From a virus (Duplodnaviria > Heunggongvirae > Uroviricota > Caudoviricetes), in the IMG/VR virus record IMGVR_UViG_2693429518_000021: 42,445 nucleotides of DNA; one strand, 5' to 3'. The translations under genes were made by a program, and so were the position numbers. This document shows positions 4,504-35,852 of this stretch, in pieces. Positions within the stretch are counted from its first letter, which is position 1. Each line of letters begins with the position of its first letter. Below the pieces are notes generated by a model. That model ran no database searches. It worked only from the letters and a program-made list of their open reading frames with translations, and was not told where the DNA came from.

Positions 4504-5517
4504 TCAACAGATGAGGTCGTATCCTGTGCATTCCATAAACGAGCGGATGAATGTTGCGGCAGCTGGTGCGACTATCGCGTTGCCGTAGGCGCGCAGTCGT
4601 CCCACTCTGGAGGTAATCCCATGAGCCAACGGGAATGTGCCGGATTCAACTGGCCGCCAGCGACCATCCCGGCAGAGGAGCCAGTCAGCATCATCCCAGC
4701 AGCTGTTAATCGTATTGGGCCGCCGAGGGTCGTTCCCCGTTTGGTATGATTGGCCGCTGCGCCCTCGCCACGAACTTTGTTGTTGTCGACCGTCGTCACT
4801 GTCGGCCATCCCGCTAATCTGGATAGCCCCGCTAAGGTTTCTAGACCGCGTTTTGTCTCCGGCTGTGGGTTTGTGTTGCAGGTTGGGGTGTACCACCCCG
4901 CCAGGTGAGCAAAATCCCGCAGGGAGCTGTGTAGCGTGTTGCCGGACGGTCGACGATCTCCAGACATCTTCCTCAATGCTATTGAGGCGCTTTCGCCACC
5001 GCTGTGGTCGCTCGCCGCTGGCATCGGCCACCCAATACGCTCTATCTCGGATATGCGGGGCACCGACGCCCGCAGCCGGAAACGGGACAAGCCCAAAGGC
5101 GTAGTCCACTGCTTCCACGTCAGTTTGTACAAGATCGAACCAGGCATTGACTCCCGCAACCTGTTCGCCAAATACCAGCTCAGGGCGTCGCTCGCTGATG
5201 AGGTGGAATAGCGCTGGCCATAGGTGCCGCTCGTCATCAAATCCAGCGCCTTTACCAGCCGAGCTGAAAGGCTGGCACGGGCAACTTCCTGTCCAGACCG
5301 GTTTGTTATCCGGCCATCCGGCCAGACGCAGAGCATAAGACCAGACGCCGATCCCGGCGAAGAAATGGCACTGTGTGAATCCGCGCAAGTCGTCTGGTGC
5401 GACATCTTCGATACTCCTTTCATCAACTTCACCCGGGGCGATATGACCCGCAGCAATAAGGTTACGCAGCCATTGTGCTGCGTTAGGGTCTATTTCGTTG
5501 TAATAGGCTCCCCGCAC
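4504..5517 (-). CDS. DNA (cytosine-5)-methyltransferase
   Basis: 337 aa with C5-MTase motifs in canonical order: motif I FFAGIG, motif [11 protein letters not shown] (catalytic Cys), motif VI FGEQV (ENV-like), motif VIII IRDRAYW, motif X AYGNAIV. Confidence 0.85.
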
Positions 5518-5810
5518 AATATCCCCTCCAGATTTTTGCTATCCAGCACCACTACGGTAAAGCCCAGCGCGCGCAGTCGTCCGTGTTCACGCAGTTGGCC
5601 GGCGCGTGGTGTCTTGCCGGGTGCTTTACATTCAACGAAAACGATACGACCACCGGGTAGCAGAACAATGCGATCTGGTACCGAGCGGCGACCGGGAGAT
5701 ATAAACTTAAAGGCCACTCCGCCAGCTTTTTTCACTTCAGCGACGAGGTGCTTTTCGATAAGGCTTTCACGTTCATAGGCCATCTGAATCCCACTCTTCA
5801 AAAAGCACAT
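5490..5810 (-). CDS. VRR-NUC domain nuclease (PD-(D/E)xK)
   Basis: 106 aa; VPDRIVLL ... IVFVECKAPGK gives the D ... E-x-K signature; typical partner of phage PolA/helicase modules. Real start may be the internal MAYERE Met. Confidence 0.6.
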   Translation of the reverse strand: MCFLKSGIQMAYERESLIEKHLVAEVKKAGGVAFKFISPGRRSVPDRIVLLPGGRIVFVECKAPGKTPRAGQLREHGRLRALGFTVVVLDSKNLEGILCGEPITTK

Positions 5811-6072
5811 TCAATACCAGTTTCTCTGCCAACGCGTTTTCTGCACGTGCGCCGGCAGAGTACTCCCACTCTTTGAGCATATAAATCGTATCGGCACAGC
5901 GAAGCATTGCGAGGCAGATGTCCATGTACTGAGCCTGTGTCAAACCATCGGGTAAAGTTGCGGGGTTAAGCACAACATATCCCTTGTCCGTTAGCCTCTT
6001 TGCTGCGGAATGAAAGGCCGGGCGGTTAAATTGCTCGTAACCGCTCATCGGCCCGGCAACGTAAACGATCAT
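5773..6072 (-). CDS. DUF4406 / nucleoside 2-deoxyribosyltransferase-like protein
   Basis: 99 aa; N-terminal IVYVAGPMSGYEQFNRPAFH resembles the DUF4406 family signature (from memory). Confidence 0.45.
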   Translation of the reverse strand: MIVYVAGPMSGYEQFNRPAFHSAAKRLTDKGYVVLNPATLPDGLTQAQYMDICLAMLRCADTIYMLKEWEYSAGARAENALAEKLVLNVLFEEWDSDGL

Positions 6073-6284
6073 TCTTCGACCGCCTTACGCTTTTCACGCA
6101 TATTCTGCATCAGGCAAAAATCAGATCTGCGTTCACTCCATTCCTGATTCAGTTCGTGATGTGATTCGCGGTTGGCTTTTGCCCAGACCTTCGCTGCCCG
6201 GTCATATTCGCCGGATTGTTCAAGTCGCAAAGCCTCCCTTGCAGCCCTGTAATAAAGTGGATTGTCCCGGTATTTAAATGACAT
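6069..6284 (-). CDS. Hypothetical small protein
   Basis: 71-aa ORF wedged between PolA and the DUF4406 gene on the same strand, with overlapping/abutting stops and starts. Confidence 0.4.
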   Translation of the reverse strand: MSFKYRDNPLYYRAAREALRLEQSGEYDRAAKVWAKANRESHHELNQEWSERRSDFCLMQNMREKRKAVEE

Positions 6285-6289
6285 AGGAG

Positions 6290-8353
6290 TTAATCCTTAC
6301 GGTAGTGGTACGCCTCAAAACCGCCAGCGTTCAGTGGGATATCTGGCGCCCATTCGGGGTTAGTGGAGAGAAGCGCGGAAAGCGCTTTATCGTTGAAATC
6401 TTCTGTGTCAGGTGATTCGGTGATCACCTCGTCGTGTACCGTCAGCACAATGCTGTAACCGGCATCTTCGATAAGCGGCATGTTTCCGGCCAGAACGTCG
6501 CGGGCGGCCGCCTGGGTGACGTTCTCCACCAGCTTTCCGCCGTAGGTTTTGAGTCGTTGCCATTTACGCGAATAAGAGTTAACACCCATGTAGGTGATAT
6601 TCCCTTGTTCGATAACCGGAGACGGGTAGCATACAGCGCGTCCGGATGGTAGCTGTATGCGCAGCCACGCGCCATCGCGGCGGATTTTAAGATAACCGCA
6701 ATACAATGTTTTTTGCGGTGTGGCGATTGCTGTGCGGACGGTGCACTCCAGTTCGTACCAGAAATCACAGGTCGCGGGATGCGCCCGGCGCCAGAGACGT
6801 TTAAGTGAGTCGCAGGCGATAAATACCCGTTCAGAAAGCCCGTAGGTCGATTTACGTTTAACCGATTCGTCGTACCAGCTTTTCGCCTCGCGGATAACAT
6901 CGCGGGGAATGTTTGGCAGTGCGGCGTTCGCCAGCCCGTCGAGATCGAGACCGTAAACCAGAGCAAAAGTGATGAAAGCCGATACACCTCCTCCATAACC
7001 CAGACCGAGTTCCATGACTTTACCGATCTGACGCATGTGTTTATCAACATCATCTGGTGCAATATCGAAAGCTTTTGCATACGCCAGTTTATATAAGTCC
7101 GGACCCGTTCCGGCGTCGTACTCTCTGAATGCATTCAGTTTCCATTCTTCTCCCGCCAGCCATGCCAGCATACGGCCTTCAATGTTCGACAAGTCACTTA
7201 CCACCAGCTTTTTGCCTGTTGGCGCGATAATGCAGCCACGTAACGCTGAACTGGTTAGTTCCATGATATTGTCAAACAGCAGGTCTGCACATCCGGCTTT
7301 CAGTGCTTCGATGCCTTCGTCTATTTGTTCCTGTTTTAGTGAAGGGCGGGGAAGGTTCTGGGGCTGGAATAGCCGTCCGGCCCAACGACCGGTACGTGAC
7401 GCCCCGCAGAACTGTAGCGTACCGCGTAAGCGCCCGTCGTGGCTTACGCCTTTCATCAGTGCCTTGTATTTACTGGTGCTGGTAGTACTGGCCTGCAGGC
7501 GGATAGCCAGCAGTTCTTTCACGGCAGATGGTAAATCGGGGTCGGCAATACGACGTTCCAGAGTACTGCGTTGCATGTCTGGTAGCTCCACACCGTAGGA
7601 TTCAACAATGTGCTTAATCAACGCGTCTCGTTGTGTGGCTGCCTGCACTTCGCCATCAGTCATTTCCTGTGTACGCTTTGCCAGGCGCTTTTGTTCCTGG
7701 TCTACCGCGTCGATCGCAGCGCGTGCGAGTTCCACGTCCATGCAGACGCCCCGGTCATTGATCTGCTGATCACGATGCCAGAGCGCCAGTTCTGTCCCCT
7801 GATAATTCCACTTCGGCAGACGTTTATAGACTTCGCGCATTGCCTCGATATCCAGTCCGGCGTAAGCAACAAAGCGCCGCCATTCTTCCGGGTGGGTTTT
7901 GCTGGTGGCCCGGCGCAGTTTGCTGTTTTTCGGGCGTGGCTTACAGAACAGCTGGATCAGCGCTTTACCTTCTTTGTCCTTCGCTTTGTCTTGCGGGACG
8001 CCTAGTACTTCGCAGAGTTCCCCCAGAGCCCCCGGGAGACCGTGCGCCAGCGCCTGCACCATCGTGTCGCGCCAACGTTCGACTGGCGGTGCCAGTCGCG
8101 GCATTGCATAACGCAGGACGGTGCGGTCGAAGTGAGAGTTATGAAAATAAAGCAGGGTTTCAGGGGCTGCGATTGCTTCGTATAAGCCGTGTGGAATACC
8201 ACCACCGGCAGTGATATCCCATACGTTTACTGGCCCGTCGTTGATAGCCCATGCGAACAGCATCACTTCAACGCCTTCGGCATACGCATGGGTACCGTTC
8301 GTAATAGGGATTTCGCAATAGGTTTCCAGGTCGCCCCATAGTATATTGGACAT
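6290..8353 (-). CDS. DNA polymerase, family A (with 3'-5' exonuclease domain)
   Basis: 687 aa; exonuclease DxE (WGDLETY), polymerase motif A ([19 protein letters not shown]-like), motif B ([16 protein letters not shown]), motif C (VHDE). Confidence 0.85.
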
Positions 8354-8399
8354 GTGTTTACCTTGGTTTTTATTCTATTAACTGATTAAAAGATTAATT

Positions 8400-9029
8400 A
8401 TGCATATGATCCAATACTTGATTGACCATACAGAGCATCTGGAGAAAATAGCTGGATATATTTTTTCATGTTTGATTGTTATGGGAGTCTGGATAAGAAA
8501 GATCATTTTTAATTATAAGTATAAAGAGCCTAAATATGTCAAGAAGTTAATTTTATATTTAGTTAAGTATGAACGTTATCTGGATAAGGAGGATAAGAGT
8601 GCCATAGAAAAAAGAATAAATGATAAAATTATTCGTGATGCGCTGAAATTGCAATCTTCTTATAACCGAAGTGATGTTATTTACATTTGCAATAGATTAG
8701 AAAAAAGACAGTATATAAATCAGGTGATTAAGCTTCAGAATTATATAGAGAAAGATAACGGAGTGTTTTTCATCAATGTTAATTTTTCAGGTTTTTTATT
8801 TATTATTAGTCGTCTGTTTTCCTTTCTGTGTTTTGTGCTGTTTATCCTTTTTTCTATTATCTGCATTATTTCCATAGGGCAAAATGAAGGCCTTTTAAAT
8901 TATCTTGTGTATATGGTTATGACAATAGTTTTAGAGACTGTTGGTTTTTGGATGTATGATACTTTCCCGTCTAAGAAGAAGATCTGTGAACTAAATAAAG
9001 AATTGAGGAAGATTAAGATTCCTGAGTGA
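8400..9029 (+). CDS. Hypothetical membrane protein (AT-rich accessory gene)
   Basis: 209-aa ORF, visibly AT-rich with Lys/Ile/Asn/Tyr-rich codon usage unlike neighbours; predicted TM segments (IAGYIFSCLIVMGVWI; FLFIISRLFSFLCFVLFILFSIICIISI; LVYMVMTIVLETVGFWMY); antisense to the polymerase/SSB operon. Confidence 0.6.
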   Translation: MHMIQYLIDHTEHLEKIAGYIFSCLIVMGVWIRKIIFNYKYKEPKYVKKLILYLVKYERYLDKEDKSAIEKRINDKIIRDALKLQSSYNRSDVIYICNRLEKRQYINQVIKLQNYIEKDNGVFFINVNFSGFLFIISRLFSFLCFVLFILFSIICIISIGQNEGLLNYLVYMVMTIVLETVGFWMYDTFPSKKKICELNKELRKIKIPE

Positions 9030-9047
9030 TTATACGCCTAATCAGCA

Positions 9048-9066
9048 GCCCGGTATTTAACCGGGC
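9048..9066. terminator. Hairpin GCCCGGT-ATTTA-ACCGGGC between convergent genes
   Basis: Perfect 7-bp stem read from sequence; no clear U-tract on either strand, so terminator function is tentative. Confidence 0.3.
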
Positions 9067-9081
9067 GTCTATGAAGTAGGG

Positions 9082-9630
9082 TTAAATCAGTGCTTCAGCA
9101 TCAGCACCTTCGCTGATATCGTCGAAATCGTCAGCGCTTGCCACTCCGCCGCCAGCGAATGCATCGCCGTCTCGCAGGAACTGGACTCCGCCTAGTGAGG
9201 CATTAATGCGTTTACCGAAATTATTGTCCTGTGCCCAGATATCGATAACGGCGTTTACATAGCACCCTGCATAGGGACGTCCATCAGCCTGAATAAGTGG
9301 CGAACGATCGCGATCAAGAACAGCTGGGCGCGCTTTGTTAGCAGCATTCAGGAAGAAATTGCCGGGGAAGCCTTCATACTCTGCTTTTTCATCACCATCA
9401 TGCAGGCACAGATTGAGTTTTTTCTCCAGTTGGTTATAAATGGGCTCCCACTTCTCTCCCCATTTTTCCTTCGCTACCTGCTTCATAGCTTTACGGATTT
9501 CTTCCAGTTGTGGGTGTTTGGGTGACATTAAAAATACTGCGGAGAAACGTGGATCGCCTTCGCCGTTTACAGTTTTAGCTTCAAACAGAGACGGGAAGGC
9601 CAGACGAACATTGTTCAGCTTCAGTTTCAT
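9082..9630 (-). CDS. DUF2815-family phage protein, ssDNA-binding-like
   Basis: 182 aa; N-terminal MKLKLNNVRLAFPSLFE and acidic C-terminal tail (DDFDDISEGADAEALI) typical of SSB-like proteins. Confidence 0.5.
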   Translation of the reverse strand: MKLKLNNVRLAFPSLFEAKTVNGEGDPRFSAVFLMSPKHPQLEEIRKAMKQVAKEKWGEKWEPIYNQLEKKLNLCLHDGDEKAEYEGFPGNFFLNAANKARPAVLDRDRSPLIQADGRPYAGCYVNAVIDIWAQDNNFGKRINASLGGVQFLRDGDAFAGGGVASADDFDDISEGADAEALI

Positions 9631-12222: not shown

Positions 12223-12747
12223 ATGTCTGAAGAAAAAGGACTTGTACGGCGTATAACTGAGGCGGCCACTAGTGCTGGTGGTGCTTTGAAAGGTGCTGTT
12301 GATTTAGCAAAAGAAGTTAATGCGTTGCAGGTGGATTACAATGTTAAAAGTAAAACTATCGATCTACTTGATAAACTAATTGATGCGCGTACTGGACAAT
12401 TCGCACTAACGGAGCTTTTGAACGAAGCTAAACAGCGCATTGTTGAACTCGAATCCCTTCTGGAAAAGAAACAGGATTGGGATAGTGAGAAAATGAACTA
12501 TGAAATGTACCACCCGATTACCAATACGGTGGTCTATGTACTGAAGCCTACTGACGATCCTGAGTTCAAGCCTCATTATCTTTGTACTACATGCTATGAG
12601 TCGGGTATGAAGTCTATACTTCAATACCATACTTCTAATGCCGCTTATAAAATTCTCAAGTGTCATAAATGCTCCGCTGAATATAAATTTCCCCGAAATA
12701 TAGAAGTCAGTGGCAAAACTCCTGCACCGTTACAACCTGCCAGATGA
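12223..12747 (+). CDS. Hypothetical protein with N-terminal coiled-coil and C-terminal 4-Cys zinc ribbon
   Basis: 174-aa ORF; CTTC ... CHKC motif near the C-terminus; divergent from the leftward operon; somewhat AT-rich. Confidence 0.55.
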   Translation: MSEEKGLVRRITEAATSAGGALKGAVDLAKEVNALQVDYNVKSKTIDLLDKLIDARTGQFALTELLNEAKQRIVELESLLEKKQDWDSEKMNYEMYHPITNTVVYVLKPTDDPEFKPHYLCTTCYESGMKSILQYHTSNAAYKILKCHKCSAEYKFPRNIEVSGKTPAPLQPAR

Positions 12748-13165: not shown

Positions 13166-13840
13166 TTAGTACATACGTAGCGCGGATTTGGCGATCCCCG
13201 CCACGTAATGGATTTTTTCAATGTTTTCGCGTGGTACTCTGACTGGTGGATGATCTTCATTTACAGACATTAGATGGAACAGGCCATCGCGTTCGAACAA
13301 GAAGGTTTTAACCATGACCTCACCTTCCCGGGTAACCACAAGTACTTCATCACCAGGAGTGTAGTCGTGGTTGGGTTCGACGATTACGAACTCCCCCTCT
13401 TTGATTCTAGGCATCATTGAATCACCAACACATTTCAGGGCGTATGCATCTTCATCCTTTGTCGGCCAGTATATGAAACCATCACTGCTACCTACTGAAT
13501 ATTGGGTGTCGCTCCAAAGTCCTCCAACGCCTAGCTGAGTGTTTCCCAAAACAGGTACTTTATTAAACCTAAGAGAAATATACGTTTTTATACCTGTCGC
13601 GTCCTCTTTCTCCATTTCTTGAAGGCTCCTTTCTGCCAAGTCTATTGGTGACACGTGGAAGTAGTCGGCGATCTGCTTTAACGTTGCGTATTTCGGATCT
13701 TTCACCTCTCCTGATACCAGCCTGTGTAGCGTTGGTTGGTTCAGCTGTAACCGACGTGCCAGCTCAGTTATCGAGCTTATCTTGGCTTTGTCCATCAGGT
13801 ACTTGATGTTTTGAGAAAGGATATCGGTAGTATCAATCAT
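13166..13840 (-). CDS. cI: CI-like prophage repressor (HTH + S24 LexA-like autopeptidase domain)
   Basis: 224 aa; N-terminal HTH (ITELARRLQLNQPTLHRLVSG); C-terminal S24 signature with catalytic Ser in GDSMMP and Lys in VMVKTF. Confidence 0.85.
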   Translation of the reverse strand: MIDTTDILSQNIKYLMDKAKISSITELARRLQLNQPTLHRLVSGEVKDPKYATLKQIADYFHVSPIDLAERSLQEMEKEDATGIKTYISLRFNKVPVLGNTQLGVGGLWSDTQYSVGSSDGFIYWPTKDEDAYALKCVGDSMMPRIKEGEFVIVEPNHDYTPGDEVLVVTREGEVMVKTFLFERDGLFHLMSVNEDHPPVRVPRENIEKIHYVAGIAKSALRMY

Positions 13841-13981
13841 TTGGATTCATCCATGTTGTATACAGGGACGGTGATTATGCGTTATCGGATATTTTAATCT
13901 AGGATGACATAGAATTGCTGTATTGCTGAGTAATCCGTTTTCGTATAAATTTGCGCTATAGACGAAAGTGGAGACTTAAAT
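13841..13981. promoter_or_regulatory. Divergent immunity-region promoter/operator interval between cI and cro
   Basis: 141-bp AT-rich intergenic region between divergently transcribed repressor and Cro-like genes; specific operators could not be resolved by eye. Confidence 0.5.
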
Positions 13982-14182
13982 ATGTCCGGACTAACACCAC
14001 AAGAGATGGTCAAAAGCTTGATTGATTCAGGGTATACCCAAAACCAAATTGCCGAAATTGCAGGCGTGAAGCAGTCTTCTATTAGTCGGCTTCTTACCGG
14101 GGTTCATTCTGACCCTCGCTTTTCTACAGTACGTGCGATAGAAAAACTTTTTCAGGAAGTGACAGCTAGACAAAAGGTGTAA
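13982..14182 (+). CDS. cro: Cro-like HTH regulator
   Basis: 66 aa; HTH motif YTQNQIAEIAGVKQSSISRL; positioned divergently from cI. Confidence 0.65.
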   Translation: MSGLTPQEMVKSLIDSGYTQNQIAEIAGVKQSSISRLLTGVHSDPRFSTVRAIEKLFQEVTARQKV

Positions 14183-14185
14183 CCC

Positions 14186-16372
14186 ATGTCCGATAGCAAA
14201 CCATGGGGAGCTACGCCTGATGAGTGGTTTCATTTCGACCTGGTATTGGGGCGGACTGCTCATCTTCTCCCAGTTGTATGTAACCCCAGTGCGACCATAT
14301 CCCCTGATAGTAAATTGAAAGCGTTGGGTAAGACGCCGAGTCGCTATAACCGGGACCGCCAGGTCACAGGTATTGCTCAATGGACCGGGCATGTTGTTAC
14401 TGAGCATGATTTTGCCCGCTGGTCGAATGAACCGGATTATGGCATCTGCGTGCGTACAGGCCATGGCTGGCTGGCGCTGGACTGCGATAGCGAAGATGAA
14501 GACATTCAGGCAGATATTCGCAAAACACTTGTGCAACTTCTGGGTGAGTCGCCGCCGCGACGCTGGCGAGCAAACAGTAATAAGTGTCTGTATCTGCTGG
14601 CCGTTGATGGTGATTTCCGTAAGCGTATCCATCGCCTGGCGGGGGATATGGGCATTATCGAGTTGCTGGCGAACGGGCAGCAGTTCGTTGCCTGTGGTAC
14701 GCACAGCAGCGGCGCGCGTATTGAATGGGACGGTGGTTTGCCGGATGAACCTCCGGCTATTACAGGTGAGCAGCTTGAAACGCTGTGGCAGCGCCTGGCT
14801 GAACAACTCCCTGTGTCGGTAACCACCGAAGCGGGCAACACGAAGATGCGCGACCGTTCAGCATTCACGCCCGGCGCGACGGATGATACAGCTGAATATC
14901 TTGATGCCAATGGCTGGACGCTGCTGGATGGCGCAAACGGTGAACGATATATCCGCTGTCCGTTTGAAGACGGCCACAGTAGCGGAGGCGATCCAACAAG
15001 CACAGTTTATTTTCCTGCGGGAACCGCAGGCTTTGAGCAGGGGCATTTTAAATGCCTGCATGCCAGTTGCGCGCATCGTGATGACGGAGATTTCCTGAAT
15101 GCCATCGGGATCCGCAACGACGATTTCGAAGATCTGACCAGCATCGAAGTGGCGGAACCTTTACCGCTGCCTGCTTTCGAGCGTGATAAATGGGGGCGTA
15201 TCGAGGCAACCATCAGCAATGCAGCCAAAGCAGTAGTACGCTCTGATTTTGTGGACATCGATATTCGCTTTGACCAGTTCCGCGACGAAATCATGTTTGC
15301 CCCGGCAGGATCCGGACAATGGCGGGCATTCACCGATGCGGATTATGCGCGCCTGCGCATCACGATGGAAAAGCGGGGATTTAAACCTGTTGGCCGTGAA
15401 CTTATTCGCGATGTGGTGTTACTTGCAGCCGATGAACAACCATTCGATTCAGCGATCACCTGGCTGAACGGACTGGAGTGGGATGGCGTGCCGCGCATCG
15501 AATGTTTCTACCATACGCACTTCGGTACCGCCGACACGCCTTATACCCGTGCGGTGTCTATGTACATGTGGACCGCGTTGGCGGGGCGAGTACTGGAGCC
15601 AGGCATCAAAGCGGATATGGTGCCGATCCTCGTTGGTCCGCAGGGCTGCGGTAAGTCTTCCGGAGTGGAGGCACTGAGCCCTGATCCTGCGTTTTTTACT
15701 GAAATCTCTTTTGCCGAAAAAGACGATGATCTCGCTCGAAAAATGCGTGGTCGGCTGGTGGCAGAGATTGGTGAACTGCGCGGGCTTAATACCAAAGAGC
15801 TGGAGTCAATCAAAGCGTTTGTGACGCGTACTCACGAAAACTGGATCCCGAAATACCGGGAGTTCGCCACCCAGTTTCCTCGTCGCCTGGTGTTCGTTGG
15901 TACCACTAATGAGGACGAATTCCTTGCGGACAAGACTGGTAACCGTCGCTGGCTCCCCGTGGAAGTGTCGAAAGTCGACGTGAAAGCGATAAAAAGAGAT
16001 CTCCTTTTACTTTGGGCTGAGGCTCGTGAGGTGTTTCAGCGTCTGGGGGGTATCCAGTTCCGTGAGGCTGAACAACTGGCAGCGAGTGTCCATGAACAGT
16101 ACACCATCAAGGATGCTTGGCTTGAAACGGTAGAGAAATGGCTCGACACGCCCGACCTGATGACTAATGAACTTCCGCGAAATTGCGAATTTTTACGCGC
16201 AAGTGATGTTTTGCGTGATGCGATTGGGCTAAATCCTGACCGCATCGGAAAACGCGAAGAAATGCGAATTAGTAATGTTTTGCAAAATTGCGGGTATAAG
16301 CGTGCCCAAAGGCGAATTGGGGGGAAAAAATGCAAGGTTTGGGAACCGCTGGAACCACGCGGAACCACCTAG
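14186..16372 (+). CDS. Phage primase / replication initiator (prim-pol N-terminal region plus P-loop NTPase)
   Basis: 728 aa; Walker A GPQGCGKSS in the C-terminal half; acidic cluster ALDCDSEDED in the N-terminal half; first gene after cro; iteron repeats begin within its 3' end. Confidence 0.75.
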   Translation: MSDSKPWGATPDEWFHFDLVLGRTAHLLPVVCNPSATISPDSKLKALGKTPSRYNRDRQVTGIAQWTGHVVTEHDFARWSNEPDYGICVRTGHGWLALDCDSEDEDIQADIRKTLVQLLGESPPRRWRANSNKCLYLLAVDGDFRKRIHRLAGDMGIIELLANGQQFVACGTHSSGARIEWDGGLPDEPPAITGEQLETLWQRLAEQLPVSVTTEAGNTKMRDRSAFTPGATDDTAEYLDANGWTLLDGANGERYIRCPFEDGHSSGGDPTSTVYFPAGTAGFEQGHFKCLHASCAHRDDGDFLNAIGIRNDDFEDLTSIEVAEPLPLPAFERDKWGRIEATISNAAKAVVRSDFVDIDIRFDQFRDEIMFAPAGSGQWRAFTDADYARLRITMEKRGFKPVGRELIRDVVLLAADEQPFDSAITWLNGLEWDGVPRIECFYHTHFGTADTPYTRAVSMYMWTALAGRVLEPGIKADMVPILVGPQGCGKSSGVEALSPDPAFFTEISFAEKDDDLARKMRGRLVAEIGELRGLNTKELESIKAFVTRTHENWIPKYREFATQFPRRLVFVGTTNEDEFLADKTGNRRWLPVEVSKVDVKAIKRDLLLLWAEAREVFQRLGGIQFREAEQLAASVHEQYTIKDAWLETVEKWLDTPDLMTNELPRNCEFLRASDVLRDAIGLNPDRIGKREEMRISNVLQNCGYKRAQRRIGGKKCKVWEPLEPRGTT

Positions 16373-17901: not shown

Positions 17902-18243
17902 ATGAAAATGCACAATGCTCCTCATTCCTGGCCTGACTTACTGGAACTCTTACAAAGTTGGTGGCGTGGAGATACGCCGTTGGGCGCAGTGGTTATGTCA
18001 ATTGTTATGGCTGGCTTGCGCATTGCCTATTTTGGCGGTGGCGGCGGCTGGAAACGAAAAACGCTTGAGATTTTGCTCTGTGGTGCTCTGACGCTGACCT
18101 TTGCATCCGCTCTTGAGTATGTTGGATGGCCTAAATCTCTTTCTGTTGCCATTGGTGGTGGTGTTGGGCTGATCGGTGTCGATGCTATTCGTGGGGCTGC
18201 AATGCGAGTAATCGGTAACAAGTTTGGTGGCTCTAAGGAGTAA
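17902..18243 (+). CDS. Holin with Met-Lys-Met dual-start motif
   Basis: GGAGGTG Shine-Dalgarno 8 nt upstream of ATG 17902 (the track's upstream ATG at 17884 lacks an SD); product begins MKM and has hydrophobic segments; directly precedes the endolysin. Confidence 0.7.
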   Translation: MKMHNAPHSWPDLLELLQSWWRGDTPLGAVVMSIVMAGLRIAYFGGGGGWKRKTLEILLCGALTLTFASALEYVGWPKSLSVAIGGGVGLIGVDAIRGAAMRVIGNKFGGSKE

Positions 18244-18246
18244 TTC

Positions 18247-18723
18247 ATGCAGACACTAAATTCCCAACGCAAAGCTTTCCTGGATATGGTGGCATGGTCA
18301 GAAGGAACGGATAACGGGCGACAACCGACACGTAATCACGGTTATGACGTTATCGTCGGAGGTGAGTTGTTCACTGATTACTCCGATCACCCTCGCAAAC
18401 TTGTCACGCTAAACCCGAAGCTTAAATCAACAGCCGCAGGCCGGTATCAGCTTCTTTCACGCTGGTGGGATGCCTACCGCAAGCAGCTTGGCCTGAAAGA
18501 TTTTTCGCCAGAAAGTCAGGACGCTGTGGCGCTGCAGCAGATTAAAGAGCGTGGCGCTTTACCGATGATTGACCGTGGCGATATTCGTCAGGCAATCGAC
18601 CGTTGCAGCAATATCTGGGCGTCGTTACCTGGTGCAGGTTACGGTCAGTATGAACATAAAATCGGTGACCTGATTTCCAGGTTTAAAGATGCTGGTGGGG
18701 TGGTAAATGAAGCTGACTTATAA
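18247..18723 (+). CDS. R: Endolysin, lambda R-like lytic transglycosylase
   Basis: 158 aa; near-identical over most of its length to lambda R as I recall it (NSQRKAFLDMVAWSEGTDNGRQPTRNHGYDVIVGGELFTDYSDHPRKLVTLNPKLKST...). Confidence 0.9.
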   Translation: MQTLNSQRKAFLDMVAWSEGTDNGRQPTRNHGYDVIVGGELFTDYSDHPRKLVTLNPKLKSTAAGRYQLLSRWWDAYRKQLGLKDFSPESQDAVALQQIKERGALPMIDRGDIRQAIDRCSNIWASLPGAGYGQYEHKIGDLISRFKDAGGVVNEADL

Positions 18724-19231
18724 GATTGTCATCGCGGCATTTTTCTTCTCTGCCTTTGGGGCGCTCGTCTGGTCTGCAAACCATTACCACAGCAAGTATC
18801 AGGCAGAAAAGTTGCGGGCTGATAAAGCGGAAGGTGAAGCTGAATATCAAGGGAAAGTGATAGCTAATCAGGCATTAAACTTCAATCGTTTTAACCAGAT
18901 AGCAGAAAACGCAAGCCGATTAAATTCTCTGGTCGACATCGGTCACGAGAAGACAGTCATCAAATACCGTGAGGTTCTGCTCCGTGAAAAGAACTGTGAT
19001 TTCCCTGTTCCTGTTGATATTGCTGTCGGGTTGCTCAACTACGCGAACCGTTTACGCGCCAGCGCATTGCACGCCGATTCCGGGGACATTGACTCAGCCG
19101 GTGATCGTGCCACTACCACCAGAACGTTGACATATTGCCAGGCTGTTCTGTGGATTAACCCACTGTTGGCAGCCATCGAGAAGGCGAATAACCAGTTGGC
19201 TGGTGTCCGACAAATAGAACAGTCCCGGTAA
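18707..19231 (+). CDS. Rz: Rz-like inner-membrane spanin (i-spanin)
   Basis: 174 aa; N-terminal TM segment (IVIAAFFFSAFGALVW) then coiled-coil-like region; overlaps the endolysin 3' end. Confidence 0.65.
   Translation: MKLTYKIVIAAFFFSAFGALVWSANHYHSKYQAEKLRADKAEGEAEYQGKVIANQALNFNRFNQIAENASRLNSLVDIGHEKTVIKYREVLLREKNCDFPVPVDIAVGLLNYANRLRASALHADSGDIDSAGDRATTTRTLTYCQAVLWINPLLAAIEKANNQLAGVRQIEQSR
18984..19130 (+). CDS. Rz1: Rz1-like outer-membrane lipoprotein spanin embedded in the +1 frame of Rz
   Basis: Embedded frame reads (V/M)KRTVISLFLLILLSGCSTTRTVYAPAHCTPIPGTLTQPVIVPLPPER: lipobox LLSGC and proline-rich mature region. No in-frame ATG; start is probably GTG (18984 or nearby). Confidence 0.5.
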   Translation: MKRTVISLFLLILLSGCSTTRTVYAPAHCTPIPGTLTQPVIVPLPPER

Positions 19232-19292
19232 TAGCATTACAGAAGCTCTTCCAGGAGGGGCTTCGATAATGACCTGATAACTGGAAAATAAA

Positions 19293-19865
19293 ATGACTAA
19301 GAAGCTGAAAGCAAAACACGAGGTGTTTTGTCGCGAGTTTCTTGTCGATCTGAATGCTACACAAGCAGCTATTCGCGCAGGCTACGTCTCCAGGCGAGCA
19401 CATGTTACGGGGGCTGAACTATACGGTAAACCTGAGATACGCGCCCGTATTAACGAGCTAAAGCAGGAGCGTATTGATCAACTGGGCATTGATGCTAATT
19501 ATGTGCTGATGCGACTGGTTGAGATCGACAGGCTCGATGTGGCTGACATCCTGGAGGACGATTTAAGTATTAAGCCTCTGTCTGCGTGGCCGGAATCGTG
19601 GCGTCGGTACCTGAGTGGATTTAACCTCGCTGAAATGTTTGAGGGGCGAGGAGATGACAGAGAAATGGTCGGGATCCTTAAAAAGATTAAGTGGCCTGAT
19701 AAGGTTAAAAACCTTGAGTTGCTTGGGCGTCATGTTTCTGTTCAGGCGTTTAAAGACAACGTCAAAAATGAAGTGACTGGCGCTGATGGAGGACCCGTCA
19801 GAACAGAAATTACCAACTTAACGCCGGAGCAGGCTGCAGAGGCGTATAGAAAAATGATGGGCTAA
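19293..19865 (+). CDS. Terminase small subunit
   Basis: 190-aa ORF immediately upstream of the large terminase; N-terminal [23 protein letters not shown] resembles small-terminase DNA-binding regions. Confidence 0.6.
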
Positions 19866-19867
19866 GT

Positions 19868-21490
19868 ATGCCGTTACCATTCCCCTTCGATTTTAAACAT
19901 CCTGATTACCAGATGGTTTTTGAATGGCGGATGGAACGCCTACAGCGCATTCGCCAGAATCCTGAAATATTGCCCGTATTGAAGCAGTTTTACCGAACCA
20001 ATCCGGCTCAGTTCATCATCGACTGGGGCATGACAACGGACCCGCGTAATATTGATTATGGCCTGCCGGTGACCATTCCGTTTTTACTCTTCCCTAAGCA
20101 GGAGGAGTGGATCCACTGGATTATGGAACGCTGGGGCAATCGGGAGAATGGTATTACCGAAAAATCCCGTGAAATGGGGCTCAGTTGGACCGCGATCGGA
20201 CTGGCCTGCTCGCTTTGTCTCTTCAACAAAGAAATGGTTATCGGTTTCGGCTCCCGTAAAGAGGAATACGTCGACAGCACCGGTGACCCGAAAGCATTGT
20301 TCTGGAAGGCACGCAAGTTCGTGGAAACGCTACCTGTAGAGTTTCGCGGTTCGTGGAGCGAGAAGAAGCACGCGCCATATATGCGTGTTGAGTTTCCTGA
20401 AACTGGTGCCGTTATCAAAGGCGAGGCTGGCGATAATATTGGTCGTGGTGACCGTACCACGCTTTATCTGGTTGATGAGGCTGCATTCCTTCAGCGTCCT
20501 CTGCTGATTGATGCGGCGTTGTCACAAACGACGCGTTGCCGTATCGACCTGAGTTCAGTTAACGGCATGGCTAACCCGTTCGCTCAGAAGCGTCATGGCG
20601 GGAAGATACCGGTATTCACATTCCACTGGCGGGATGATCCTCGCAAGGATGAAGAGTGGTATCGCAGGGAATGCGAGAAAATCGATAATCCGGTGGTGGT
20701 GGCACAGGAACTTGATCTGAACTACAGCGCATCAGCGGAAGGCGTTCTGATTCCATCCGAATGGGTACAGGCTGCCGTTGATGCGCATATCAAACTGGGT
20801 ATCCAGCCAACAGGCAAACGACTTGGCGCGATGGATGTCGCCGACGAAGGCAGGGACAAAAATGCCTTTTCCACCCGTCATGGCTTCCTCCTGGAAAATG
20901 TGCGGGAATGGTCCGGTGTGGGCAGCGACATTTATCAGTCCGTCGAGAAGGTTTTCGGCTTTTGCGAACAGGACAACCTCGAAGAGTTTCGCTTTGACGA
21001 GGACGGGCTGGGCGCTGGCGTTCGCGGCGATGCACGCGCTATCAACGAACTGCGTAACGCTGCGCGTCGACCGTCAATACTTGCCACACCGTTTCGAGGT
21101 AGTGGCGCGGTATTTGATCCGGATGATGAAGCTGTTCGCGGGGACAACGGGCAAGCCGCACGTCTGAACAAGGACTTCTTCGCTAACGCCAAAGCCCAGA
21201 GCTGGTGGCGGTTACGTAAACTTTTTCAGAATACCTGGCGCGCCGTGGTTGAAGGTATGGCTTACAACCCGGACGAAATCATCTCAATCAGCAGTAGCAT
21301 GGCACTCAAAGATAAACTCATCATCGAGCTTTCGCAGCCGACCTATTCCATTAATGGTGTGGGAAAAATCGTTATTGATAAACAGCCTGATGGAACCCGA
21401 TCGCCAAACCTTGCCGACTCGGTGATGATCAACTATGCCCCAATGAATTCAGCCCTGAACATCTGGGAGCTGCTAGGGAGACAGGCCTGA
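19868..21490 (+). CDS. Terminase large subunit
   Basis: 540-aa ORF in the canonical position between small terminase and portal; contains an acidic DE motif (LYLVDEAAF) consistent with a Walker B ATPase element. Confidence 0.75.
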
Positions 21491-33639: not shown

Positions 33640-34704
33640 ATGTCACAGAACTGGATGAGACATTTCGAGCTGCAGCTTGTGGACGGGAACGGTCAGGGAA
33701 TTGAGCTAAGTGATTTTAAAGTGACCTTTACGATCGACTGGTTCAACATCAGCAGCGCGTCCCGGGTAGGGACTATCAAAATTTATAACCTCTCGGCAGA
33801 TACTGTGAACCGAATCACCGGGCGGGAGTTTTCGAAAGTGCGTCTGATTGCGGGTTACGACGGTATCGCGCCGGAGGTGTCGGCAAGCGACGTCGGGATC
33901 GTGCGGGAGGTTGATGCGGCGGACGTGGGCCAGAGTGATGGCCGCAACTACGGACTGATTTTCAGCGGTGAAATTCGCTACTCGGTTACAGGAAAAGACA
34001 GTCCGGTTGATTCCTACGTCCTGATTCAGGCAGCAGATACTGATCTGGCTTTTGCCACCAGTATAACCTCACAGACGCTGGCTGCCGGTTACACGGTCGC
34101 TGATGTGAACCGTGCGCTGATGAAAGACTTCGAAGCCAAAGGTGCGACCGAAGGCCTGACGCCTGAAATGCCTGCTACTGTATTCCCCCGGGGGCGGGTG
34201 CTCTTTGGCATGACGCGGCATCTAATGGATAACGTAGCCGGGCAATGTGGCGCAACATGGCAATTCGTAGACGGTCAGCGCCAGATGGTGGCGAATAATG
34301 AATATGTTCACGAAGCGATTGTGCTCAACAGCGCTACCGGGCTTATTGGCATGCCGCAGCAGACCATCGGCAACGGCGTAAACGTTCGCGCGCTTATTAA
34401 TCCGAACATCCGGGTTAATGGGCTCATTCAACTGGATCAGGCTTCCGTATATCGCACCGCGTTGTCGAACAACGATATCGCTATGGCTGGTGGGCAGATC
34501 ACCGACCAGAACACGGACGGAAATATTACGCTAAGCGGCACCACATCGCAGCCTGCCAGCATCGCAACGGATGGCGTTTATATTGTGCGCGGGATTATGT
34601 ACACTGGCGATACAAGGGGCCAGGCGTGGTACATGGATATGATGTGCGAAGCGCGCGGTGCGCAGGATATGCCATCCAGCACTGCTTTTCAGAGAGGATT
34701 ATAG
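33640..34704 (+). CDS. Putative baseplate hub/tail protein
   Basis: 354-aa ORF between the tape-measure region and the baseplate V/W/J genes. Confidence 0.45.
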   Translation: MSQNWMRHFELQLVDGNGQGIELSDFKVTFTIDWFNISSASRVGTIKIYNLSADTVNRITGREFSKVRLIAGYDGIAPEVSASDVGIVREVDAADVGQSDGRNYGLIFSGEIRYSVTGKDSPVDSYVLIQAADTDLAFATSITSQTLAAGYTVADVNRALMKDFEAKGATEGLTPEMPATVFPRGRVLFGMTRHLMDNVAGQCGATWQFVDGQRQMVANNEYVHEAIVLNSATGLIGMPQQTIGNGVNVRALINPNIRVNGLIQLDQASVYRTALSNNDIAMAGGQITDQNTDGNITLSGTTSQPASIATDGVYIVRGIMYTGDTRGQAWYMDMMCEARGAQDMPSSTAFQRGL

Positions 34705-34706
34705 AA

Positions 34707-35054
34707 ATGAAACGATGGATATTTTCATTGCTGGCATTAGTGTCTGTTGGTGTAAGTGCAAACACCATAACGATGCAATGCGGCAACTTTCGTATGGATG
34801 CGATCCCTGATTCATTATTTAAAATCAATGGCGAAACAGTAACGTCCCAAAAAGTAAAAATGTTGGGTAAAGACGGTACAGGCATGCAGATCAAAATGGA
34901 CCTGATGCCTGCCAAAGATGGCAACAATTATGGGTTCGAGTATATCCATCGACCTGGCACTAAAACGCGTTTCCTGAACGTCCAGTTGTTGCAGAACAGC
35001 ATGGATGCTCCGAAAATTATTGGCTCTTTCCCGTGTAAGAAAGTTGTTGGTTGA
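34707..35054 (+). CDS. Secreted (periplasmic) small protein, accessory
   Basis: 115 aa; N-terminal signal peptide MKRWIFSLLALVSVGVSA with an AxA-type cleavage site; no convincing lipobox. Confidence 0.55.
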   Translation: MKRWIFSLLALVSVGVSANTITMQCGNFRMDAIPDSLFKINGETVTSQKVKMLGKDGTGMQIKMDLMPAKDGNNYGFEYIHRPGTKTRFLNVQLLQNSMDAPKIIGSFPCKKVVG

Positions 35055-35061
35055 TTGAGAA

Positions 35062-35616
35062 ATGAGCAAGCGTTCGTCAATAGATACAACAGAAGAACAA
35101 AAGGCAATTGAGACTATAGGCGCTGATTTTATTTCGTCATATTATAAAGATAGATATGAGGAAGCAAAATCAACATATCGTCGTCTTGAGGACAAAGTTA
35201 ACTACCTTCTTGCTATTTTAGCTGTAGAAACCTCTGCTCTACTGGCTGTATTTGGGACTGTTGATTTCAAAAGTGGGCTAAAGAGTAATTGGTTTTTAAC
35301 ATTATCTATACTTTGTGCATATCTGTGCTTTGTTTGTATTGTTATGTGCTTTTTTTTCCTATGGCGTACTTGGGGACTGAAAGATATACCAAAAATGCCT
35401 ATTCATAAGCGAAAAGAAGAGCATGATTTTTTATTTTACGGTGATAAAATTAAAACGCTTAGATACCATATGTTTCAGTATGGTAAAGCTGTTGAATTGA
35501 TCGAAAGTCTTCATAAAGAAAAGGCAGTTTACGCTCGTTATCTTTTTGAAGGAATTGCGTTATCTTTCGGTTTTTTCATATTATCGGTTACTTTTCTTTT
35601 GATAAATAAGGCATAG
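35062..35616 (+). CDS. Hypothetical inner-membrane protein, accessory (AT-rich)
   Basis: 184 aa; TM segments (YLLAILAVETSALLAVFGTV; FLTLSILCAYLCFVCIVMCFFFLW; GIALSFGFFILSVTFLLI); codon usage visibly AT-rich. Confidence 0.55.
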   Translation: MSKRSSIDTTEEQKAIETIGADFISSYYKDRYEEAKSTYRRLEDKVNYLLAILAVETSALLAVFGTVDFKSGLKSNWFLTLSILCAYLCFVCIVMCFFFLWRTWGLKDIPKMPIHKRKEEHDFLFYGDKIKTLRYHMFQYGKAVELIESLHKEKAVYARYLFEGIALSFGFFILSVTFLLINKA

Positions 35617-35619
35617 TTG

Positions 35620-35790
35620 ATGACAACATCAAATAATGACAACTCACAGCAAAGCAAGCCAACGCAAGCAGAGCAATCCATGGCTGATTATGAAAGCAGT
35701 ATAATGCTTGAAGTACCTTTTGGTGGATTGGATTACATGACAGAAAGCGTTAAAGAACCTGAGTTGGACAATTTTAAACAGAAAAAATAA
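35620..35790 (+). CDS. Hypothetical small acidic protein (56 aa), accessory
   Basis: ATG 35620 to TAA 35788..35790 (MTTSNNDNSQQSKPTQAEQSMADYESSIMLEVPFGGLDYMTESVKEPELDNFKQKK); below the ORF-track size cut-off; followed by a terminator. Confidence 0.35.
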   Translation: MTTSNNDNSQQSKPTQAEQSMADYESSIMLEVPFGGLDYMTESVKEPELDNFKQKK

Positions 35791-35811
35791 ACTTAGAGTT
35801 GTTCCTGTAGA

Positions 35812-35838
35812 CCCGCCACTTGGCGGGTTTTTTGTTTT
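35812..35838 (+). terminator. Intrinsic terminator (CCCGCC-ACTT-GGCGGG plus T-run) closing the accessory cassette
   Basis: Perfect 6-bp GC stem followed by TTTTTTGTTTT. Confidence 0.55.
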
Positions 35839-35852
35839 CAGGAGTTTATCAA

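What the first reader, a model, noticed from the sequence alone, without database searches (positions are those of the whole stretch)
8400..9029. AT-rich membrane-protein gene inserted antisense between the polymerase and SSB-like genes
The 209-aa ORF has much lower G+C than its neighbours (by eye, not computed), Lys/Ile/Asn-rich codon usage, one N-terminal and two or more C-terminal predicted TM segments, and opposite orientation to the operon around it. Only 46 bp separate its start from the PolA start, so polymerase transcripts must read antisense through it. This is the signature of a horizontally acquired moron; small membrane proteins in such positions are often superinfection-exclusion or abortive-infection factors.
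Basis: partly seen in the sequence, partly recalled or inferred. Interest (0 to 1): 0.55.

Follow-up and report, generated by a model that had tools for sequence, protein, structure and literature searches.

The report
Orphan membrane-protein moron in a prophage
A small, very AT-rich gene for an inner-membrane protein sits backwards inside the replication operon of an E. coli prophage. It is a swappable cargo cassette from a rare, uncharacterised protein family that also turns up in cargo slots of unrelated phages and islands, and it most likely excludes other phages, though that is untested.

Summary
ORF 8400-9029 (+, 209 aa) has 29.5% G+C, the lowest of any 630-nt stretch in a 50% G+C window. 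It lies 46 bp from the start of the divergent family-A DNA polymerase gene and converges on the DUF2815/Enc34 SSB gene.

The window is an E. coli prophage (ETEC H10407 type, 98% identical to phage vB_EcoM-606R2). In prophages whose flanks are 98-99% identical, the same pol|SSB slot holds other cargo. One alternative is a 199-aa allele that is a remote homologue of this protein (hhalign 98.4%, E 1e-14).

The family is tiny and confined to Enterobacterales. An exhaustive HMMER search of 1.84 billion proteins gave 10 hits. Members are always solitary and AT-rich. They occur in the P2 S|V (orf30) slot, upstream of a lambdoid Q gene, next to TraG, on integrase islands, or alone in the chromosome.

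The predicted topology is N-out/C-in with three TM helices and a cytoplasmic helical domain of about 90 aa. There is no significant match to Pfam, NCBIfam, PADLOC, PDB, SieA, SieB or RexB.

Moron status is strongly supported. A Sie/Abi function is a reasonable inference without direct evidence. The closest positional analogue is sieB of lambda and P22.

The parts
8400..9029 (+). Moron gene: 209-aa predicted inner-membrane protein (identical to WP_000551021.1 in ETEC H10407; phrog_10579). Layout: acidic N-tail 1-13, TM1 about 14-36, basic cytoplasmic helical domain about 37-115, beta-hairpin 116-125 (GxFFI motif), TM2 about 127-160, 6-residue loop, TM3 165-188, basic C-terminal amphipathic helix with the family motif FPxxKxIxxxNxxLxK.
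8354..9047 (.). Exchangeable cargo cassette. The left edge abuts the polymerase start codon. The right edge lies in the left arm of the hairpin downstream of the SSB gene. The cassette also supplies the polymerase ribosome-binding site (AAGG at 8362-8365, - strand).
   Evidence: Junction comparison with L004-L009; alternative cargo in sister prophages; G+C trough
8347..8376 (+). Candidate sigma-70 promoter for the moron (TGGACA-18-TATTCT, 9 of 12 matches). Its -35 element overlaps the polymerase start codon. It is a consensus match only; the region has no more such sites than shuffled sequence.
9048..9066 (.). GC-rich hairpin (GCCCGGT-ATTTA-ACCGGGC) between the two convergent stop codons. No T-run follows it on either strand. 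It is shared with sister prophages that carry other cargo (L008, L009), so it belongs to the backbone downstream of the SSB gene.
   Evidence: z = -2.2 on +, -3.5 on -; no canonical terminator
6290..8353 (-). Left flank of the slot: family-A DNA polymerase gene (687 aa).
9082..9630 (-). Right flank of the slot: DUF2815 / Enc34-type ssDNA-binding protein gene (182 aa).

Best explanation
The region 8354-9047 is a self-contained moron cassette. It was dropped by recombination into a cargo hotspot between the SSB and DNA polymerase genes of the early-left (replication) operon of a temperate E. coli phage.

It encodes a three-TM inner-membrane protein. The predicted topology is N-out/C-in, with a cytoplasmic helical domain of about 90 aa and a basic C-terminal helix also in the cytoplasm.

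Most likely the gene is transcribed from its own promoter while the prophage operon around it is repressed. Lytic-phase transcription running the other way would then oppose it. The protein most likely serves the lysogen as a single-gene phage-exclusion factor working at the cytoplasmic face of the inner membrane. It could block a step of genome entry, or it could sense infection and damage the membrane (abortive infection).

Shown here: cassette status, family membership, mobility between elements, predicted membrane architecture, purifying selection. Inferred: expression in the lysogen, the exclusion function and its mechanism.
For: 1. Hotspot. 159 of 5426 complete E. coli genomes match the pol-SSB query and 67 carry this gene, always in this slot. 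Sister prophages with 98-99% identical flanks carry instead:
- a 199-aa allele (L005 type, found in 13 genomes; a second 199-aa allele in L008);
- an 89-aa two-TM gene;
- a 166-aa one-TM gene;
- a 229-aa soluble gene.
All of these lie on the + strand and have low G+C (0.29-0.40). Other variants carry Nmad5, Ant or BRO-N genes on the - strand.
2. The 199-aa allele is a remote homologue: hhalign probability 98.4%, E 1e-14, 191 columns. It also occupies the same slot in a Klebsiella aerogenes prophage.
3. Family members are solitary and AT-poor (gene G+C 0.28-0.40 against 0.41-0.58 for the locus) in unrelated mobile contexts:
- the P2-like S|V slot, which holds non-essential Orf30 in P2;
- upstream of a lambdoid Q gene, after a methylase, an HNH gene, an HD/dGTPase-like gene and an unannotated 424-aa gene;
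- near TraG_N;
- integrase or toxin-antitoxin islands;
- isolated chromosomal islets.
They share no conserved neighbour, so the gene works alone.
4. dN/dS is 0.32-0.37, against 0.07 for pol and 0 for SSB. The gene is constrained but fast-evolving, as conflict genes tend to be.
5. In ETEC H10407 the polymerase gene is frameshifted and the SNF2 gene has an internal stop, yet this gene is intact and identical to the window copy.
6. Charge distribution fits the topology: 21 K/R in the 34-126 segment, 7 in the C-tail, none in the N-tail or the 6-residue loop.
7. Precedent. sieB of lambda and P22 is likewise a gene of 184-192 aa placed antisense inside the early-left operon. In P22 it has its own mapped promoter.
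Against: - There is no experimental or expression data of any kind.
- No member has a significant match to any of the 5027 PADLOC models. The SieA, SieB and RexB profiles are also negative.
- The promoter match is no better than chance, and no canonical terminator follows the gene.
- Orientation relative to the host operon is not conserved. The gene is co-directional in the Rahnella P2-like and the lambdoid contexts. Antisense placement is therefore not intrinsic to the family, and lytic-phase expression is possible there.
- Almost nothing is exposed to the periplasm (13 + 6 residues). This argues against classical periplasm-facing blockers of injection.
- Membrane morons can also be lysogenic-conversion or fitness factors unrelated to phages.
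Confidence: 0.5

Rival explanations
1. The gene is a lysogenic-conversion or host-fitness factor unrelated to phage conflict. Examples would be a modulator of a host transporter, of envelope stress or of a cell-division component, kept because it benefits the lysogen in some niche.
For: The moron architecture and the retention in a decaying prophage fit this equally well. No defence-database match exists. Two homologues sit alone among housekeeping or metabolic genes: SLT|thrS in Xenorhabdus and eut|LysR in Pluralibacter.
Against: Hosts span very different niches: gut E. coli, plant-associated Rahnella and Pantoea, nematode-symbiotic Xenorhabdus. That argues against a niche-specific trait. Very divergent alleles (about 20% identity) replace each other at one slot in near-identical prophages. 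This pattern is more typical of conflict genes. Several contexts hold known or suspected conflict genes: an HD/dGTPase-like gene, a methylase and HNH gene, CbtA/CbeA, HicA.
Confidence: 0.2
2. The gene works for the phage itself during lytic growth or establishment. It could be a counter-defence or host-takeover membrane protein, or a membrane anchor for the replication machinery encoded around it.
For: It sits between the polymerase and SSB genes. In the Rahnella and lambdoid contexts it is co-directional with phage operons and could be read through in the lytic cycle. Its soluble domain is predicted to face the cytoplasm.
Against: Near-identical prophages replace it with non-homologous genes or with none on the + strand (L009), so the replication module does not need it. 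Homologues occur outside any replication module and outside phages. In this window it is antisense to the early operon, a poor arrangement for co-expression with replication genes.
Confidence: 0.15
3. The gene is a lysis-related protein (holin, antiholin or lysis regulator).
For: It is small, has several TM helices and a basic C-tail. There are very weak holin-type hits: phrog_2508 at E 0.066 and Pfam Phage_holin_3_6 at E 0.25 or worse in 4 of 22 members.
Against: The same prophage has a standard lysis cassette elsewhere (lambda-family holin, GH24 endolysin, a downstream ORF). None of the ten contexts examined places the gene inside a lysis cassette. The cytoplasmic domain of about 90 aa is atypical for holins. 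All the hits are far below threshold.
Confidence: 0.05
4. The ORF is not functional: a chance reading frame in an AT-rich spacer, or a decaying remnant.
For: There is no Shine-Dalgarno sequence upstream of 8400, no annotated function, and a few truncated variants exist (P0002, 158 aa).
Against: Full-length relatives at 22-44% identity exist in at least seven genera, with the same length and the same TM layout. dN/dS is below 0.4. The AF2 model built on the family alignment reaches pLDDT 79.5. 66 of the 67 E. coli copies are full length.
Confidence: 0.03

Closest known systems
SieB of phages lambda and P22 (abortive-type superinfection exclusion)
   Same: Similar size (184-192 aa against 209). 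Lower G+C than its neighbours (0.39). Placed antisense inside the early-left operon of a temperate enterobacterial phage, between N/gene 24 and ral. In P22 it has its own annotated promoter and start site, so it can be made in the lysogen. It has a hydrophobic N-terminal segment.
   Different: No sequence relationship: hhalign probability 0.1% for both. SieB has only one hydrophobic region by hydropathy (one or two overlapping peaks) and a soluble C-terminal half, whereas this protein ends in a TM hairpin. M28 is not conserved in the family, so there is no counterpart of the esc internal start.
SieA of phage P22 (Pfam PF26849; inner-membrane exclusion protein)
   Same: The overall layout is alike: N-terminal TM, charged loop, a C-terminal cluster of TM helices, a short basic C-tail. 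It is an AT-rich (0.34) single gene with its own promoter in a prophage.
   Different: No homology. No member matched the Pfam SieA model at E <= 1. hhalign against a 9-sequence SieA profile gives probability 0.5-0.6%. SieA is 164 aa with a much shorter loop and three C-terminal TM helices.
Orf30 of phage P2 (non-essential gene in the S|V slot)
   Same: An AT-rich (0.34), non-essential membrane-protein gene of unknown function inserted between two operons of a temperate phage. A 38%-identical homologue of the window protein occupies exactly this S|V slot in a Rahnella P2-like prophage.
   Different: No sequence similarity: BLASTP E 0.51. Orf30 is 261 aa and its three TM helices are evenly spaced.
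Membrane effectors of abortive-infection systems (RexB; SLATT, PycTM and CBASS 2TM effectors)
   Same: Small multi-TM inner-membrane proteins carried by prophages and defence islands.
   Different: RexB: hhalign probability 0.15%. SLATT-type: one marginal hit in each of two 199-aa alleles, E 0.049 for L008 and 0.085 for P0013. Those effectors work with a partner sensor (RexA, a cyclase, a reverse transcriptase). This gene has no conserved partner in any context.
DUF2207 C-terminal domain (PF20990, predicted membrane protein)
   Same: Nine of 22 members give sub-threshold hits. In the four members shown individually the hits are colinear, covering profile positions about 61-190 (best E 0.0048, 17 bits). 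NCBI names one member 'DUF2207 domain-containing'.
   Different: All hits are far below the gathering score of 33 bits. The window protein itself does not hit. DUF2207 has no known function, so the link would explain nothing.

Membership tests
Moron (autonomous accessory cassette in a temperate phage) | Present or absent, or replaced, in otherwise near-identical phage genomes | tested here: met
   Flanks 98-99% identical with different cargo; 67 of the 159 genomes matching the pol-SSB query carry this gene
Moron (autonomous accessory cassette in a temperate phage) | Base composition different from the surrounding phage genes | tested here: met
   G+C 0.295 against 0.49-0.54 in the flanks; lowest in the window, z = -4.5. 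The same holds for homologues in nine other loci
Moron (autonomous accessory cassette in a temperate phage) | Own promoter and terminator; expressed from the repressed prophage | tested here: inconclusive
   One 9/12 promoter-like site at 8347-8376, no better than shuffled sequence, and no canonical terminator. A hairpin without a T-run lies at 9048-9066. Expression is not testable with these tools
SieA (PF26849) | Sequence match to the family profile | tested here: not met
   No Pfam hit at E <= 1 in 22 members; hhalign probability 0.5-0.6% against a 9-sequence SieA alignment
SieB (lambda, P22) | Sequence match to SieB | tested here: not met
   hhalign probability 0.1% for both proteins
SieB (lambda, P22) | Gene antisense within the early-left operon | tested here: met
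   Window gene order compared with the lambda and P22 annotations. This is a resemblance of position, not of family
RexB | Sequence match, and a RexA-like partner gene | tested here: not met
   hhalign probability 0.15%; no conserved neighbour in ten contexts
Known or candidate defence proteins in PADLOC-DB 2.0 | Significant match to any of 5027 models | tested here: not met
   Window protein: no hits at E <= 1. Among 22 members only isolated marginal hits: PDC-S47 E 4e-4 in one, REase_II E 0.005 in three, RTasSLATT E 0.085 in one
Superinfection exclusion or abortive infection (functional class) | Expression reduces infection by other phages | not testable with these tools
   Needs plaque and liquid-infection assays
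phrog_10579 | Match to the PHROG profile | tested here: met
   E 2e-109 over residues 28-209. The PHROG has no known function

The most novel reading that the evidence does not exclude
The 209-aa protein and its 199-aa allele may be founding members of a previously unrecognised family of single-gene, inner-membrane phage-exclusion proteins. On this reading the family moves as an AT-rich cassette between cargo hotspots of unrelated temperate phages (the pol|SSB slot of this phage group, the P2 S|V/orf30 slot, the region upstream of a lambdoid Q gene) and islands, and it diversifies by allele replacement at a given slot. The pol|SSB junction would then be a defence hotspot comparable to the P2 and P4 hotspots.
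Probability: 0.35. Interest if true: 0.6.

Novelty: new member of a known kind. Interest (0 to 1): 0.4.

Why it matters
If the protein is an exclusion factor, it adds a defence family that current detectors (PADLOC, Pfam, NCBIfam) do not see. About 1.2% of complete E. coli genomes carry it, including ETEC H10407 and several STEC lineages.

It would also mark the pol|SSB junction of this phage group as a mineable cargo hotspot. At least five different small + strand genes, three of them membrane proteins, alternate there, and none has a known function.

One family also appears in the P2 orf30 slot, upstream of a lambdoid Q gene and in this slot. That makes it a clean example of cassette traffic between unrelated phage backbones.

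If it turns out to be a fitness factor or has no phenotype, it remains an ordinary hypothetical moron.

Tried and rejected
- Pfam, NCBIfam, PADLOC and PHROGs scans of the protein and of 22 family members gave nothing above threshold, apart from phrog_10579, which has no known function.
- The word-indexed search of 5.8 billion proteins found only near-identical E. coli copies. The exhaustive HMMER search was needed to find the family.
- tblastn against 50,697 phage records found only three near-identical E. coli phages. tblastn against 72,556 plasmids found nothing.
- A profile search of PDB sequences found nothing.
- Homology to SieA, SieB, RexB and P2 Orf30 was tested and rejected.
- Transposon-like insertion was rejected. 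No meaningful terminal direct or inverted repeats flank the cassette.
- The search for related loci could not use the family alignment because it is too divergent.
- Literature searches by accession, PHROG id, phage name and PDC-S47 found no paper.
- An Esc-like internal start at M28 was considered, because the PHROG profile begins there. It was rejected because M28 is not conserved.

Full report
**1. The observation**

The ORF at 8400..9029 (+) encodes 209 aa.

Composition:
- G+C is 0.295 and GC3 is 0.333. The polymerase gene on its left has 0.543/0.567, the SSB gene on its right 0.488/0.454, and the window 0.503.
- The 630-nt stretch starting at 8371 has the lowest G+C of the whole 42-kb window (0.286, z = -4.5).
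- The 300-nt profile shows a sharp trough limited to about 8300-9000.

Geometry:
- The polymerase ATG is at 8353-8351 on the - strand and the ORF ATG is at 8400, so 46 nt separate the divergent starts.
- The ORF converges on the SSB gene. 52 nt lie between the two stop codons, and they contain a GC-rich hairpin at 9048-9066.

Neighbours and protein features:
- The flanking genes are a family-A DNA polymerase, a DUF2815/Enc34-type ssDNA-binding protein and a DUF2800 PD-(D/E)XK nuclease, all on the - strand.
- The protein is rich in Ile, Leu, Lys, Tyr, Phe and Asn.
- Hydropathy and the AlphaFold model agree on one N-terminal and two C-terminal TM helices.

Every descriptive element of the finding is therefore confirmed.

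**2. Where the window comes from**

- The region is 98% identical to Escherichia phage vB_EcoM-606R2 and two sibling phages.
- It is 100% identical to prophages in E. coli chromosomes. In ETEC H10407 the prophage sits next to yfhL/shoB.
- In that prophage a leftward gene run covers ORF300, DUF2800, SSB, the slot, pol, ANR, DUF4406, VRR-NUC, methylase, SNF2 and integrase. It lies to the left of a CI-type repressor gene. Rightward come Cro, a VapE primase, Q, lysis genes and morphogenesis genes.
- The gene is annotated only as 'hypothetical protein' (WP_000551021.1).
- More distant relatives of the replication module are Yersinia phages YeP4-6, Bordetella BPP-1 and the APSE phages.

**3. The slot is a cargo hotspot**

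A query spanning pol 5' end, the gene and SSB matched 159 of 5426 complete E. coli genomes, but only 67 over its full length. These are the same 67 that carry the gene, so in E. coli the gene occurs only in this slot.

The remaining genomes have flanks 98-99% identical and different contents:
- a 199-aa + strand gene (L005; with Ant in L008);
- an 89-aa two-TM + strand gene plus Nmad5 (L004);
- a 229-aa soluble + strand gene plus Nmad5 (L006);
- a 166-aa one-TM + strand gene (L007);
- only - strand BRO-N (L009).

All five + strand alternatives have low G+C (0.29-0.40).

Homology between the variants stops exactly at the polymerase start codon. On the other side it stops within a few bases to about 35 nt after the SSB stop codon. 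Each cassette therefore even brings its own ribosome-binding site for pol. No terminal repeats flank the cassette, so exchange is by recombination, not transposition. In Yersinia phage YeP4 the same interval holds two unrelated co-directional genes.

**4. The protein family**

- The word-indexed search found only near-identical copies.
- The exhaustive HMMER search of 1.84 billion representatives found ten proteins. All with a named source are from Enterobacterales: Rahnella/Rouxiella, Serratia, Pantoea/Erwiniaceae and Xenorhabdus. The clusters hold 1-6 members.
- These proteins are 209-218 aa and 26-43% identical to the query, and their N-termini are conserved. This supports the start at 8400. 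It argues against the internal Met at residue 28, where the PHROG profile begins.
- The 199-aa gene from the same slot in sister prophages aligns colinearly, including the C-terminal FPxxxxIxxxNxxLxK motif.
- Profile-profile comparison of the two groups gives probability 98.4% and E 1e-14 over 191 columns. They are very divergent alleles (about 20% identity) of one family.
- The L005-type 199-aa allele is in 13 complete E. coli genomes. Related 199-aa proteins occur in Enterobacter, Klebsiella and Pluralibacter.

**5. Genomic contexts of relatives**

| Relative | Context |
|---|---|
| 38%-identical, Rahnella | P2-like prophage between gpS and gpV, co-directional; G+C 0.27-0.32 against 0.55 |
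| Erwiniaceae | Just upstream of a lambdoid Q gene, after methylase, HNH, an HD/dGTPase-like gene and an unannotated 424-aa gene |
| Metagenomic member | Near TraG_N and a UvrD-type helicase |
| Xenorhabdus (two members) | Edge of a prophage remnant; alone between SLT and thrS |
| 199-aa type, Enterobacter (two) | Integrase/CbtA-type island; integrase/YjhX island |
| 199-aa type, Pluralibacter | Isolated islet |
| 199-aa type, Klebsiella aerogenes | The same pol\|SSB slot |

In phage P2 the S|V interval holds the non-essential, antisense, AT-rich Orf30, bracketed by a terminator and the pV promoter.

In all nine loci the gene is an AT-poor island (0.28-0.40 against 0.41-0.58). No neighbour is conserved. 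The gene is thus an autonomous unit that moves between cargo slots of unrelated elements.

**6. Structure and topology**

The family alignment gave an AF2 model with mean pLDDT 79.5:
- helix 11-37 (TM1);
- four cytoplasmic helices at 43-111;
- a beta-hairpin at 116-125 (the conserved GxFFI motif);
- helices 132-160 and 165-188 (a TM hairpin);
- a final helix at 192-202.

Charges follow the positive-inside rule for an N-out/C-in topology. The N-tail and the 6-residue loop have no K/R, the 34-126 segment has 21, and the C-tail has 7. Almost nothing faces the periplasm.

Fold searches gave only generic helical matches. CorA-type channels are among them but are not specific.

**7. Selection**

dN/dS is 0.37 between the window and phage 606R2 (8 non-synonymous and 5 synonymous changes). 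It is 0.32 between two 199-aa alleles (74 and 47). The same genome pair gives 0.07 for pol and 0 for SSB. The gene is constrained as a protein but evolves much faster than the replication genes.

In ETEC H10407 pol is frameshifted and SNF2 has an internal stop, while this gene is intact and identical to the window copy.

**8. Comparison with known systems**

- No significant match exists in Pfam, NCBIfam, PADLOC or PDB sequences.
- Two weak leads are recorded but not relied on. DUF2207_C gives sub-threshold hits in 9 of 22 members. PDC-S47 hits one Xenorhabdus member at E 4e-4.
All probabilities are below 1%, including against a 9-sequence SieA profile. The protein is not a member of those families.
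- The positional resemblance to sieB is close, however. In both lambda and P22, sieB is a gene of 184-192 aa with lower G+C, lying antisense inside the early-left operon. In P22 it has its own mapped promoter.
- From my own knowledge, not tested here: SieB aborts the lytic growth of superinfecting phages, and SieA acts at the inner membrane against DNA entry.
- SieA also shares the general layout of N-terminal TM, charged loop, C-terminal TM cluster and basic tail.

**9. Interpretation**

Moron status is well supported, at about 0.9. The functional reading is an inference at about 0.5. It holds that the protein is a single-gene phage-exclusion factor made by the lysogen and acting at the cytoplasmic face of the inner membrane. 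It rests on:
- the hotspot behaviour;
- allele replacement at one slot;
- solitary mobility between elements;
- fast evolution;
- retention in a decaying prophage;
- the sieB precedent.

The rivals are a non-phage fitness factor (0.2), a phage-serving lytic-phase protein (0.15), a lysis protein (0.05) and a non-functional ORF (0.03).

The claim that polymerase transcripts must cross the gene antisense is plausible. No - strand promoter-like site and no terminator were found between SSB and pol, and co-directional relatives keep the two genes in one run. It remains unproven.

**10. Verdict**

This is a real, well-delimited cargo cassette carrying a member of a rare, uncharacterised membrane-protein family. 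It is a new member of a known kind, the prophage moron and candidate exclusion gene. Interest is moderate. It is a good candidate for a defence screen, and the slot itself deserves mining, but nothing here is mechanistically surprising yet.

Noticed in passing
window 34626-36010 (ORFs 34707-35054 + and 35062-35616 +): A second AT-rich patch (630-nt G+C below 0.40) lies inside the tail/baseplate module. It holds a 115-aa ORF with a signal-peptide-like N-terminus and a 184-aa protein with a soluble N-terminal part and TM helices. The 184-aa protein weakly matches the Pycsar PycTM effector (E 2.6e-4) and the CBASS 2TM effector (E 7e-3), with no cyclase nearby. It is probably another moron pair.
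   Followed up: partly
window 12223-12747 (+): A 174-aa + strand gene with low G+C (0.41) lies to the right of the - strand early-left operon, towards the repressor in the H10407 annotation. It matches phrog_1244 (unknown function, E 2e-43), has a coiled-coil N-terminal half and four Cys near the C-terminus. It looks like another moron-type insertion.
   Followed up: partly
L004-L009 (sister E. coli prophages), slot equivalent to window 8354-9081: The pol|SSB junction alternates between at least five unrelated small + strand genes: 89 aa with two TM, 166 aa with one TM, 199 aa, 209 aa and 229 aa soluble. Some variants add - strand Nmad5, Ant or BRO-N genes. One variant has an HNH endonuclease gene between SSB and DUF2800. 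None of the + strand genes has a Pfam or PADLOC match.
   Followed up: partly
L001 3109-3870 (phage vB_EcoM-606R2), equivalent to window about 5500-6290: Downstream of pol, phage 606R2 carries a TIR-like domain protein where the window has ANR, DUF4406 and VRR-NUC genes. This is a second variable region of the same operon.
   Followed up: no
L002 (ETEC H10407) 13703-15097 and 17926-20000: In ETEC H10407 the prophage SNF2 gene has an internal stop and the polymerase gene is frameshifted, so that copy is probably defective. The moron is nevertheless intact and identical to the window copy.
   Followed up: partly
window 8340-8353 and the same sequence in L004-L008: The first polymerase codons, read on the + strand (CATAGTATATTGGACAT), are conserved in most slot variants (L007 differs at several bases). 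They contain -10-like (TATATT) and -35-like (TGGACA) hexamers facing into the slot. A resident outward promoter that would drive whatever + strand cargo lands there is conceivable but untested.
   Followed up: no
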